NCBI RefSeq assembly: GCF_057098645.1
Contig: NZ_CM169472.1
Reading direction: 5' to 3' (one strand)
Length of the DNA stretch: 64,000 nucleotides
This document shows positions 37,401-40,400 of this stretch, piece after piece (positions within the stretch are counted from its first letter, which is position 1; each line of letters starts with the position of its first letter). Made by a program: the position numbers.

Positions 37401-40400
37401 GTCAGAATCAACTCTTCACCGCCCATCCATACCTGACGGCGACCCATATTCAGCGTCAGATTGCCAACAATCAGCTCACTTTCGCCCTGATTATTATGGC
37501 GTCGTAGCAGGGCGCGGATACGGGCGTGTAACTCTTCCAGCGCAAAAGGCTTCACCAGATAGTCATCGGCACCGACATCCAGCCCGGCGATTTTGTCGGT
37601 CAGCGTATCGCGAGCGGTGAGGATCAGTACCGGCAGGGTATATTTTTTCTGCCGGATACGGGCGAGAAAATGCAGTCCATCTTCGTCGGGTAACCCTAAA
37701 TCCAGTACCACCAGGCTGTAATGACCTGCCTCAAGGCTTTGTTCCGCCATCCGCGCGGTTGTCACGCCATCGCACGCGTAGCCTTCGGTTTGCGCCGCCA
37801 GAATCAGTCCCTGCAATAACAGCGTATCGTCTTCAACAATCAGAATTTTCATTCACTCACTCTCCTGCAAGTTTGCAGAATATCATCCGCAGCCTGGTAA
37901 TACTTCGTCTCAACGCCAGTTAATCCCAATAGCGTGGAGAATAAATTGTCTTGTGAATAGTGTTGCGTTTGCGCCTGTTTTTGCAGGCAGTTCTGGTCAA
38001 CCTGATACCGTTTTTGATAATCCTCCGACAGCCACAGCAGCATTGGCACCTGTTTTTGGCTATCCGGGGCGATGGCATAAGGCAGACCGTGCAGATAGAT
38101 GCCATTTTCACCTAACGATTCACCGTGGTCAGAAAGATAAACCAGGCTGGTGGTAAATTTATCCTGATGTTCTTTCAGCAGATTAATCGCTTTATCAACA
38201 ATATAGTCGACGTAAACCAGAGTGTTGTCGTAAGTGTTCACCAGTTGCTCTTTGCTACAGGTCTGGATCTCATTGGTGTCGCAGGTTGGGGTAAATTTCC
38301 TGAACTGCGGCGGATAGCGGTTGTAATAGGTCGGACCGTGGCTGCCGATGGTGTGTAAGACAATCACGCCATCACCCTGCAGGTTATTGATGTACTCTTC
38401 CAGCCCGTGGAACAGCACTTCGTCATAGCATTCGCCGTTGATGCACTGACCAGGCAGATTCAGCGCGGTGACGTTCTGGTGAGGCACGCGGTCGCAGGCA
38501 CCTTTACAGCCACCATCGTTGTCATTCCACAGCACGTTGATGCCCGCTCGCTGAATGATATCCAGCACGCCTTCCTGGTGCTGTGCCAGCTCTTCTTTGT
38601 AATGCTCACGCGGCATATCCGAGAACATGCACGGTACTGAAACTGCCGTTGCCGTGCCGCAAGATGTGGTATTAGGGAAATAGACCACGTTATCTTTCGC
38701 CAACCGCGGGTTAGTTTCACGCGGGTAGCCGTTGAGGGAGAAGTTCTCCGCCCGCGAGGTTTCGCCGACAATCAGGATGGTCAAATTTTTACGTTTTTCG
38801 TTCTGCATTAACGGGTTGCGGTGCGCGTCTTCACCAATTCGCACCAGCGGCAGATTTGCCAGCCGCTGATGGGAGTACCATGACCAGCTGGCAACAATGC
38901 TGTTAGAGGGGCTTAAGGACTTCACCAGCTCTTTGTTGTTGCGGAACAACGAGGCGTAGTCTTTATAAAATAGTGCGGCGACCAGCAAAATCAGCAGTAC
39001 AGAAACCAGAATATTGGCTCCACGGAAAAGAACACTGCGCAGACGCGAGGTGGCAGGTTTGATTTTTATCCAGCAGGCAATCAGCGCAGCAAGCACGCCG
39101 CTGAATCCCAGCGTTAATAACATTTGCGGTGTCATCAGCGCATAACTTTCTGCCGGAGTGGTATCAATAATATTGGCAATCATCGAGCGGTCGATGACGA
39201 TGCCGTAAGTCATTATGAAATATTGTGCAGCCGCGCCAACCAGAATAAACAGGCAGGCCAGCGGTCGATTAAGCCATAAGAAAGAGCTTAGTGTCAGGAC
39301 AATATTAATCACGCTGAAGGCGACGACCGGCATCGACAAGAAAACCAGTATGTTATGCAGCGAGTCCAGCGGCAGCGCCTGCAACACCTGTTTAAAAAAG
39401 GCAATATTCAGGCAGATAGAGATATAAAAAGCGGCTAACAATAGCCAGGCGAGTAAATTCAAAGAGGGTCTTTTTAGTAGGCGCTTCAACATCACGGTGT
39501 TTCCATCGAACAAAGTGCGCATATGCTCGCAAAGCAAAATTAAGCCAACCTTAAGTTCTTAAGGTTGGCTTTTATCTTTGCTGGATTAAGGGGAATTAAT
39601 CTTTGCTTATTGGTGCATCTAAGGGATACGGGTTTTTATGCAGCCGGTTGTAATTCAGCGCATACATGGCGGTGATGACCATCAGGGTGACAAATGACCA
39701 CATAACCTCTTTCGCCCCGGACCCCACCACGGCCCAGATGCAGTAGAGGAAGGCAATGGTAGTAACTGCCAGATATGCCGGGCGTGCTTTACCAAAGTGA
39801 CCGTGTCCGAGCAGCAGTAACGCCGCACAGGTGTAAAGATATGGCACCAGTGTAAAGATGACCGAGACGGAAGAAACCAGACCGAATTCTTTGGTCGCGT
39901 TTGGTGAAATGCTGCTGAGCTGGAAGATGGTCATCAAAATACCGACGATAATCAGCCCCGCTACTGGCGTACCCGCTTTATTTACACGGGCAAAAATCGG
40001 TGGGAACAGTCCGTCATCGGCAGCCGCTTTCGCCGTTTGACCCGCCAGCAATGTCCAGCCGCCCAGTGAACCTAAGCAACCCGCAGCTGCGCAGAAGGAA
40101 ACAATGGCCCCGGCGGTGTCACCCAACGCCATCCGTGCGGCATCACCGAATGGCGAGGCAGAAACGCGCAGTGCGGCATTAGGGATCATCCCCATAATCG
40201 CGGTGGTGGAGAGCACATAGCAAACGGCGGCAATCAATACCCCACCAATGGTGGCGATAGGGACATTGCGTTTCGGGTTTTTCACCACACCTGCGGCAAC
40301 GGAGGCACTTTCCACACCGATGAACGACCACAGCGTAACGTTAAGGGTACTTTGAATCGCACCGAAGGTGCCCAGGCCGCTGACGTTCCATGCCGCCATA

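What the first reader, a model, noticed from the sequence alone, without database searches (positions are those of the whole stretch)
39539..39569. eptA PmrA box lies within a 26-bp perfect palindrome that also abuts the adiC stop
GCCAACCTTAAG-TT-CTTAAGGTTGGC is a perfect inverted repeat. Read in eptA orientation it contains CTTAAG-GTTGG-CTTAAT, a canonical PmrA box placed where a -35 region would be for a start codon at 39492. The same hairpin sits within 30 nt of the adiC stop on that strand, with a T-rich tail, so one structure may act as both terminator and activator site.
Basis: seen in the sequence. Interest (0 to 1): 0.4.

Follow-up and report, generated by a model that had tools for sequence, protein, structure and literature searches.

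The report
adiC terminator hairpin doubles as eptA PmrA box
A 30-bp perfect palindrome between the E. coli genes adiC and eptA is both the known binding site for the activator of the polymyxin-resistance gene eptA and, as RNA, the hairpin where adiC transcripts end; this is a compact but ordinary dual use of known elements.

Summary
Shuffled sequence does not produce it, and it is identical in 5386 of 5426 complete E. coli genomes. On the eptA strand it holds CTTAAG-GTTGG-CTTAAT (39555-39539), the PmrA/BasR box. A conserved -10 (GAGCAT, 39528-39523) lies 10 nt downstream, so the box spans about -39 to -23. The terminator idea has experimental support. A published re-analysis of E. coli Term-seq data lists the primary adiC 3' end at K-12 4335633, which is window 39535. 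That is the last base of UUAAUUUUG directly after the hairpin.

Two refinements came from 47 Enterobacteriaceae eptA promoters:
- The inner TTAA of the distal arm is invariant even where adiC is not the upstream gene, so the palindrome core belongs to the promoter.
- The outer arm, which mirrors the non-specific N5 spacer, is lineage-specific. It is what makes a stable hairpin in Escherichia and C. amalonaticus, which have no other hairpin in this spacer. Salmonella has a degenerate palindrome and a separate REP-like hairpin.

The parts are known; their overlap appears unremarked. Interest is modest.

The parts
39542..39571 (.). 30-bp perfect palindrome (14-nt arms, 2-nt centre). As RNA on the - strand it forms a 13-bp stem with a 4-nt loop.
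   Evidence: identical in 5386/5426 complete E. coli genomes
39558..39571 (-). Distal (5') arm, AAGCCAACCTTAAG. The outer part (GCCAAC) mirrors the N5 spacer of the box and is lineage-specific.
   Evidence: Within Escherichia 1/14 positions vary against 6/8 in the flank just upstream.
39559..39562 (.). Third TTAA core, about -46..-43 and 8 bp upstream of half-site 1. Invariant in all 47 aligned Enterobacteriaceae eptA promoters whatever the upstream gene.
   Evidence: (columns 18-21)
39550..39555 (-). PmrA/BasR half-site 1, CTTAAG (about -39..-34)
39545..39549 (-). N5 spacer of the box, GTTGG. It is part of the 3' arm of the hairpin.
39539..39544 (-). PmrA/BasR half-site 2, CTTAAT (about -28..-23). 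Its C closes the GC part of the stem and its TTAAT starts the U-tract.
39535..39543 (-). Mapped 3' terminus region of adiC mRNA, UUAAUUUUG. The dominant end is at 39535 (K-12 4335633).
   Evidence: coordinate conversion
39572..39581 (-). A-rich tract 5' of the hairpin. It pairs imperfectly with the U-rich tail, and on the + strand it reads as a U-tract.
   Evidence: not conserved among Escherichia species
39523..39531 (-). Inferred extended -10 of the eptA promoter: TG (39531-39530), C, GAGCAT (39528-39523). Predicted start site is near A 39516.
   Evidence: Invariant A53, A56, T57 and near-invariant G50. Same box-10 nt-hexamer geometry at pmrR and arnB. The start site is inferred, not mapped.
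37849..39492 (-). eptA coding sequence (ATG at 39492)
39596..40933 (-). adiC coding sequence (TAA at 39598-39596)

Best explanation
The palindrome is one stretch of sequence read in two ways.

(1) As duplex DNA. The promoter-proximal arm plus the next five bases is the BasR/PmrA box of the eptA-basRS promoter. It consists of two YTTAAK half-sites in direct repeat, 11 bp apart, ending 10 bp upstream of an extended -10 (TGcGAGCAT). It occupies the -35 region, as PhoB/OmpR-family activators do.

(2) As RNA made by polymerase leaving adiC. The two arms fold into a 13-bp hairpin followed by UUAAUUUUG, and adiC transcripts end there. It is therefore the adiC intrinsic terminator. Its U-tract is the second PmrA half-site plus the T-rich promoter spacer.

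The inner part of the distal arm (CCTTAA) is an ancient element of the eptA promoter, present across Enterobacteriaceae. In Escherichia and a few relatives the distal arm also mirrors the spacer of the box, which PmrA does not read. That extension is what makes the hairpin stable.

Shown: the sequence anatomy, the conservation and the mapped 3' end.
From the literature: PmrA binding to this promoter.
Inferred: the -10 and start site, Rho-independence, and that the outer arm is maintained for termination.
For: - Palindrome and fold.
- Box. The box lies 46 +/- 1 nt from the ATG in most of the 56 loci where it was found.
- Invariant columns in 47 promoters: TTAA x3, GTT, A53/A56/T57.
- Same box-to-hexamer spacing at pmrR and arnB.
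- Term-seq 3' end at window 39535, which is 9 nt after the stem-closing C.
- Escherichia and C. amalonaticus have a 98-105-nt spacer with no other hairpin (0 to -4.8 kcal/mol) and a strong palindrome (-13.5 to -20). Salmonella and the C. freundii complex have 131-147-nt spacers with a separate hairpin (-17 to -29), and in most of them the palindrome is weak (-1.6 to -3.6).
- The mirrored bases include the N5 spacer, which differs between PmrA boxes: GTTGG, GTTGT, GTTCA, and GTTAA at arnB. PmrA half-site recognition therefore does not explain the outer arm.
- Two lineages show matched changes on both arms: GACAAC/GTTGTC in L025, and CATTAAG/CTTAATG in L012, L015 and L053.
- Within Escherichia the distal arm is conserved while the flank just upstream is not (Fisher p = 0.002).
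Against: - The U-tract is interrupted (UUAAUUUU). A classical hairpin plus T-tract score is below threshold on this strand (-9.5).
- Only 5 of 13 stem pairs are G-C.
- Covariation across the family is weak. Two pairs change on both sides, which 160 of 500 shuffles reach, and most pairing comes from invariant TTAA cores.
- Several lineages keep a fairly strong palindrome although they also have another hairpin, or have a different upstream gene and no U-rich tail (L018, L020, L022, L025).
- The 3' end comes from one data set, grown in LB where adiC is poorly expressed. A 3' end after a hairpin can also arise by exonuclease trimming of longer transcripts.
- I could not read the primary PmrA/BasR footprint papers.
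Confidence: 0.75

Rival explanations
1. The palindrome is purely a DNA-level protein site. The distal arm is an inverted third PmrA half-site, or a site for the paralogue QseB or for the RNA polymerase alpha C-terminal domain. The RNA hairpin is incidental, and the mapped 3' end is a decay or trimming product.
For: - The distal TTAA is invariant in all 47 promoters, including Klebsiella, Kluyvera and Raoultella, where the upstream gene is not adiC and the tail is A-rich.
- It lies at about -46..-43, the position of the proximal UP-element subsite (inference).
- Hairpin covariation is weak.
- eptA is up-regulated without PmrA in a pmrA qseC double mutant.
Against: - The outer arm mirrors the N5 spacer, which PmrA does not read.
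- The spacing to half-site 1 is 8 bp, not the 11 bp of tandem OmpR/PhoB-type sites (for the head-to-tail rule).
- The pmrR and arnB boxes lack a TTAA at that position.
- The Term-seq end sits exactly where an intrinsic terminator would release.
- Escherichia has no other terminator-like hairpin after adiC.
Confidence: 0.15
2. It is a bidirectional terminator whose main job is on the + strand. There it would stop antisense transcription running out of eptA towards adiC.
For: - On the + strand the hairpin is followed by UUUUAUCUUU. The hairpin plus T-tract score is above threshold (+12.9 against -9.5 on the - strand).
- The scan flags both strands.
Against: - The Term-seq sheet lists no + strand 3' end anywhere between 4332120 and 4352484.
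- The A/T tract that provides the + strand tail varies even among Escherichia species.
- No + strand gene or promoter-like site points into it.
Confidence: 0.05
3. It is a chance palindrome that arises because CTTAAG is self-complementary, or a copy of a repeated palindromic element of the REP type.
For: - CTTAAG is its own reverse complement, so part of the symmetry comes free.
- REP-like hairpins do occupy the same spacer in Salmonella and Citrobacter.
Against: - Perfect 14-nt arms are not seen in shuffles.
- There is one copy per genome (median 1, maximum 2) and one in the window.
- The 30-mer is invariant in 99% of E. coli genomes while the surrounding spacer varies.
Confidence: 0.02

Closest known systems
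PmrA (BasR) box of PmrA-activated promoters (pmrC/eptA, pbgP/arnB, ugd, pmrR): YTTAAK-N5-YTTAAK direct repeat
   Same: - Exact match to the consensus.
- Sits upstream of the gene from which the motif was partly derived (yjdB).
- Same 10-nt distance to the -10 hexamer as at pmrR and arnB.
   Different: - Here half-site 1 and the spacer are duplicated in inverted orientation 2 bp upstream. This gives a third invariant TTAA and a 30-bp palindrome.
- The pmrR and arnB boxes have no such arm.
Rho-independent (intrinsic) terminators of E. coli
   Same: - Stable hairpin shortly after a stop codon.
- U-rich tail.
- A-rich tract 5' of the stem.
- RNA 3' end 9 nt after the stem.
   Different: - The stem is A/T-rich (5 G-C of 13 pairs).
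- The U-tract is broken by AA because it is also a PmrA half-site.
- The classical score is sub-threshold.
- The whole element lies inside the next gene's promoter, from -55 to -19.
pho box / PhoB-type class II activation (OmpR/PhoB family)
   Same: - Tandem head-to-tail half-sites 11 bp apart that replace the -35 hexamer and end 10 bp upstream of the -10. The PhoB geometry is from general knowledge; head-to-tail binding of the family is stated.
   Different: - The recognition sequence is different.
- The contact with RNA polymerase is not established for PmrA at this promoter.
proP-pmrR junction in the same window
   Same: - A co-directional upstream gene (proP) is followed by a hairpin (35919-35947). 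A PmrA box (35957-35973) starts 10 nt after it.
- A Term-seq 3' end (K-12 4332117 = window 36019) lies beyond that box.
   Different: - There the hairpin and the box are separate, adjacent elements.
- At eptA they are the same bases.

Membership tests
PmrA/BasR box | Two YTTAAK hexamers in direct repeat separated by 5 bp | tested here: met
   CTTAAG-GTTGG-CTTAAT at 39555..39539 (-). There are 2 matches in the window against 0.04 expected. Consensus as cited.
PmrA/BasR box | Positioned over the -35 region of a PmrA-activated promoter, about 10 bp upstream of the -10 hexamer | tested here: met
   Invariant nAnnAT lies 10 nt after half-site 2 in 47 promoters. pmrR and arnB have the same geometry. 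The -10 and start site are inferred from conservation, not mapped.
PmrA/BasR box | Conserved upstream of orthologous eptA/pmrC genes | tested here: met
   Present in 56 of 57 loci examined, 46 +/- 1 nt from the ATG in most (range 44-50).
PmrA/BasR box | Bound by phosphorylated PmrA/BasR (footprint, gel shift, ChIP) | not testable with these tools
   Literature only. yjdB is among the validated motif instances, and BasR-P is stated to bind the eptA promoter. The primary papers are not held.
Intrinsic terminator | Stable stem-loop shortly downstream of a stop codon on the transcribed strand | tested here: met
   13-bp stem, 4-nt loop, 24 nt after the adiC TAA. Core -15.3 kcal/mol, extended fold -25.9, z = -5.7.
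Intrinsic terminator | Uninterrupted U-tract of about 7-9 nt immediately 3' of the stem | tested here: inconclusive
   UUAAUUUUG has 6 U in 8, interrupted by AA. The hairpin plus T-tract score is -9.5, below the classical cut-off of 0. It passes the looser scan.
Intrinsic terminator | RNA 3' ends map within the U-tract in vivo | tested here: met
   Published Term-seq re-analysis: minus strand 4335633-4335641, dominant 4335633, class 'Primary adiC'. This equals window 39535-39543.
Intrinsic terminator | Termination is independent of Rho and reproducible in vitro; the ends are not a trimming product | not testable with these tools
   No bicyclomycin or in vitro data were seen for this site.
Intrinsic terminator | Stem maintained by compensatory change among relatives | tested here: inconclusive
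   Two pairs change on both sides, a count reached by 160/500 shuffles. The covariation score exceeded all 500 shuffles, but the sequences are related. One arm is fixed by the PmrA box, which limits the test.
REP/BIME-type repeated palindrome | Many dispersed copies per genome | tested here: not met
   One place per genome (median 1, maximum 2) in 5386 genomes, and a single copy in the window.
Bidirectional terminator | 3' ends on both strands at the same hairpin | tested here: not met
   The + strand tail scores well. However, the Term-seq sheet lists no + strand terminus near it. That is one growth condition only.
Known RNA family (Rfam) | Match at or above a family's gathering score | tested here: not met
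   Best hits were 18.6-23 bits against gathering scores of 50-80.

The most novel reading that the evidence does not exclude
The eptA promoter may carry a third regulatory element that has not been described. This is the TTAA at about -46..-43, invariant across the 47 aligned Enterobacteriaceae promoters, which forms an inverted repeat with PmrA half-site 1. It could be an extra or alternative contact for PmrA, for its paralogue QseB, or for the polymerase alpha subunit.

In Escherichia this mini-palindrome was extended into the adiC terminator. Every adiC transcript must then be made across the PmrA box. Expression of the acid-resistance antiporter and activation of lipid A modification could therefore interfere with each other, through PmrA acting as a roadblock that aids termination, adiC transcription displacing PmrA, or read-through giving PmrA-independent eptA-basRS expression.
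Probability: 0.2. Interest if true: 0.5.

Novelty: new member of a known kind. Interest (0 to 1): 0.3.

Why it matters
[quoted passage not shown] If the terminator of one is built from the activator site of the other, three things follow.

- Leaky termination would give PmrA-independent expression of the eptA-basRS operon under extreme acid.
- PmrA occupancy could change how well adiC transcripts terminate.
- Promoter mutations selected under colistin could alter the 3' end of adiC mRNA.

It also shows how a terminator can evolve cheaply, by mirroring a sequence already fixed for another reason. The invariant third TTAA is a concrete, testable addition to the textbook two-half-site PmrA box. 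None of this changes how either element is thought to work individually.

Tried and rejected
Literature
- Primary papers on the PmrA/BasR box and on E. coli start sites were not held: Ogasawara 2012, Froelich 2006, Marchal 2004, Lee 2004, Aguirre 2000, Thomason 2015. Binding rests on secondary citations.
- The supplements of Adams et al. 2021 and of the TERMITe paper contain no adiC or eptA entry in the text held. Two other papers have no supplements held.
- The TRS file was cut when stored. Only the 'Barsheshet' and 'Dar and Sorek' sheets could be searched for this coordinate, and the former does not list the site.
- A paper naming adiC, eptA and 'terminator' turned out to concern the region downstream of pmrB.
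- The last literature search for BasR ChIP or start-site data found nothing relevant.

Computation
- The Rfam search found nothing.
- Covariation analysis of the hairpin was inconclusive.
- The chance and repeated-element explanations were rejected.
- The idea that an upstream inverted TTAAG is a general feature of PmrA boxes was rejected. pmrR has TTGA and arnB has TTAG at that position.

Not done
- I did not examine the roughly 25 E. coli genomes whose palindrome differs, nor the 3 plasmid-borne copies.
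Full report
**What is there**

The window is E. coli, 100% identical to an O157:H7 chromosome over the region tested. The local gene order on the - strand is adiA, adiY, adiC, eptA, basR, pmrB. proP and pmrR lie on the + strand.

- eptA runs 39492 to 37849 and adiC runs 40933 to 39596, both on the - strand.
- The 103-nt spacer between them contains a perfect inverted repeat with 14-nt arms, 39542-39555 and 39558-39571.
- It is not a chance feature. No shuffle matched it even with three mismatches. In 100 Markov shuffles of the 64 kb, perfect repeats with arms of at least 12 nt occurred 0.02 times on average.
- It is single-copy. The 30-mer is found once per genome in 5386 of 5426 complete E. 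coli genomes, and nearly all matches cover all 30 bases.
- The 103-nt spacer as a whole is at least 99% identical in only 4334 genomes.

**The activator site**

Read on the eptA strand, the proximal arm and the next five bases are CTTAAG-GTTGG-CTTAAT (39555..39539). This matches the published PmrA consensus (C/T)TTAA(G/T)-N5-(C/T)TTAA(G/T) exactly.

- The window has only one other match, upstream of the PmrA-activated gene pmrR.
- yjdB, the old name of pmrC/eptA, is one of the genes the validated motif came from.
- Phosphorylated BasR is reported to bind the eptA promoter.

I fetched 60 eptA loci from one genome per species. The box was present in 56 of 57 loci examined, 46 +/- 1 nt from the start codon in most.

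A gap-free alignment of 47 Enterobacteriaceae promoters shows these invariant columns:
- the two half-site cores;
- GTT after half-site 1;
- A, A and T of a hexamer nAnnAT that begins 10 nt after half-site 2. In this window it is GAGCAT, 39528-39523, preceded by TG at 39531-39530.

The same box, 10 nt, hexamer geometry holds at pmrR (CATACT) and at arnB (TAAAAT, in an oligonucleotide printed). With that -10, the box spans about -39 to -23 and the start site is predicted near A 39516. The promoter geometry is an inference from conservation. I found no start-site mapping that I could read.

**The terminator**

On the adiC strand the palindrome begins 24 nt after the TAA.

- It folds into a 13-bp stem with a 4-nt loop. 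The core is -15.3 kcal/mol. With the flanking A-rich and U-rich tracts the fold is -25.9 kcal/mol, z = -5.7.
- It is followed by UUAAUUUUGCUUUG.
- The simple scan calls it terminator-like on both strands.

The decisive evidence is experimental. Supplementary Data 2 of Bar et al. 2023 (PMC10687069) re-analyses the Dar and Sorek Term-seq libraries (BW25113, LB, exponential phase; coordinates converted to NC_000913.3). It lists a 3' terminus on the minus strand at 4335633-4335641, dominant position 4335633, signal 1, p = 0 in three replicates, class 'Primary', gene adiC.

K-12 and the window differ by a constant 4296098 here. The terminus is therefore window 39535-39543, the run UUAAUUUUG. The dominant end falls on its last base, 9 nt after the C that closes the G-C part of the stem. 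That is where an intrinsic terminator releases its transcript.

Caveats:
- It is one data set, from a condition in which adiC is weakly expressed.
- Trimming of longer transcripts back to a hairpin would give a similar end.
- The U-tract is interrupted by the AA of half-site 2, so a classical hairpin plus T-tract score is below threshold (-9.5). Termination may be incomplete.

**Which part of the palindrome serves which role**

The comparison across species separates two layers.

*Layer 1: the inner distal arm.* The TTAA at 39559-39562, about -46..-43, is invariant in all 47 promoters. This includes Klebsiella, Kluyvera, Raoultella and unnamed Enterobacteriaceae. In the one such locus I checked (L025) the co-directional upstream gene is a 302-aa ORF that I guessed, untested, to be ybhK-like, not adiC, and the other loci of this clade end in a similar C-terminal coding sequence. 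In that clade the tail after the box is A-rich rather than U-rich. C. koseri, with what looks like fumB upstream, and Intestinirhabdus, with a 210-aa ORF I guessed to be yjdF-like, also keep it; neither upstream gene was tested. This element therefore belongs to the eptA promoter, not to adiC. It is not a general property of PmrA boxes, since pmrR has TTGA and arnB has TTAG at that position. Its 8-bp spacing from half-site 1 does not fit the head-to-tail tandem binding typical of the family. What it contacts is unknown.

*Layer 2: the outer distal arm.* GCCAAC (39564-39569, plus AA) mirrors the N5 spacer and the first C of half-site 2. The spacer differs among PmrA boxes (GTTGG, GTTGT, GTTCA, GTTAA), so half-site recognition does not explain a mirrored copy of it. 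Base pairing does.

- Within Escherichia the distal arm varies at 1 of 14 positions, against 6 of 8 in the flank just upstream (p = 0.002).
- Escherichia species and C. amalonaticus have short spacers (98-105 nt), no other hairpin (0 to -4.8 kcal/mol) and a strong palindrome (-13.5 to -20).
- Salmonella and the C. freundii complex have 131-147-nt spacers with a separate GC-rich, REP-like hairpin (-17 to -29), and most have a degenerate palindrome (-1.6 to -3.6).
- Two lineages show matched changes on both arms: GACAAC/GTTGTC in L025, and CATTAAG/CTTAATG in L012, L015 and L053.

The pattern is suggestive but not clean.
- Several Citrobacter lineages have both a fair palindrome and another hairpin.
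- L025 has a good palindrome without adiC or a U-tail.
- The formal covariation count is unimpressive: two pairs with double changes, reached by 160 of 500 shuffles. One arm is frozen by the PmrA box, which weakens that test.

**Mechanism proposed**

Polymerase leaving adiC transcribes through the third TTAA, half-site 1 and the spacer. The hairpin forms while the polymerase sits on half-site 2 and the T-rich promoter spacer, and the transcript is released at about -19 relative to the eptA start.

The same duplex, when bound by BasR-P, recruits polymerase to the extended -10 just downstream. The AA that weakens the U-tract is the cost of keeping half-site 2. The terminator needed only the distal arm to evolve, because the proximal arm and tail were already fixed.

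Whether the two functions interact is not addressed by any data I found. Possible interactions are a roadblock by bound PmrA, displacement of PmrA by adiC transcription, and read-through into eptA-basRS.

**Rivals**

- A purely DNA-level role for the whole palindrome explains the invariant TTAA. It does not explain the mirrored spacer or the position of the 3' end.
- A + strand terminator role is suggested by the better tail on that strand (+12.9). However, the same Term-seq sheet lists no + strand end, and the tract is not conserved among Escherichia species.
- Chance and repeated-element explanations are excluded.
- No Rfam family matches.

**Comparison with what is known, and verdict**

The PmrA box of eptA/pmrC is textbook. 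The adiC 3' end already sits in a public table. Terminators that overlap the next promoter are a familiar consequence of tight gene packing.

What seems not to have been pointed out:
- the two are the same bases;
- the hairpin arm is a mirror of the activator site, including its non-specific spacer;
- a third TTAA is invariant at eptA promoters.

I rate it a new member of a known kind with modest interest (0.3). The most novel reading that remains open is a third regulatory contact, plus functional coupling between adiC transcription and PmrA control of eptA. I give that about 0.2 probability.

Noticed in passing
window 35957-35973 (+), with 35984-35989: A second exact PmrA box (CTTAAGGTTCACTTAAT) lies 44 nt upstream of the pmrR start codon (36018). 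The hexamer CATACT begins 10 nt after it, the same geometry as at eptA. Unlike eptA it has no inverted TTAAG arm upstream.
   Followed up: partly
window 35919-35947 (+): A GC-rich hairpin (GGCCTGAT...ATCAGGCC) starts 13 nt after the proP stop codon and ends 10 nt before the pmrR PmrA box, with no U-tract. This is a second case in the window of an upstream gene's terminal hairpin abutting a PmrA-dependent promoter.
   Followed up: no
window 35987-36014 (both strands); 36019 (+): A perfect 10-nt inverted repeat (ACTCTCCTCC/GGAGGAGAGT) covers the pmrR Shine-Dalgarno region. The Term-seq table lists a + strand 3' end at K-12 4332117 = window 36019, just after this hairpin and on the pmrR start codon. 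Read on the - strand, the repeat lies downstream of pmrB, a region reported to affect pmrB mRNA (PMC8004244).
   Followed up: partly
window 39572-39581 (+ strand reading): On the + strand the palindrome is followed by TTTTATCTTT and scores better as an intrinsic terminator (+12.9) than on the adiC strand (-9.5). No + strand gene or mapped 3' end accounts for this.
   Followed up: partly
L007, L008, L011-L015, L017-L019, L023, L052-L054, L056 (adiC-eptA spacers): Salmonella and many Citrobacter species carry an extra REP-like hairpin in the adiC-eptA spacer (for example GCCGGATAGCGCAGGTTATCCGGTC or GCCCGATG...CATCGGGC). It lengthens the spacer by 30-45 nt.
   Followed up: partly
E. coli genome collection: Three copies of the 30-mer lie on records typed as plasmids, and a few genomes have two copies. 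About 25 genomes that hold the spacer lack an exact 28-30-nt match to the palindrome. These natural variants were not inspected.
   Followed up: no
window 57058-57091, 60336-60361, 6476-6505, 872-891, 49547-49566: Other long perfect inverted repeats in the window (arms of 10-15 nt) turned up in the palindrome census. They are probably terminators or operator-like sites.
   Followed up: no
K-12 4338106 = window 42008 (-): The same Term-seq sheet lists a strong 3' end (signal 1) in the adiA-adiY spacer. This suggests adiA has its own terminator upstream of adiY.
   Followed up: no
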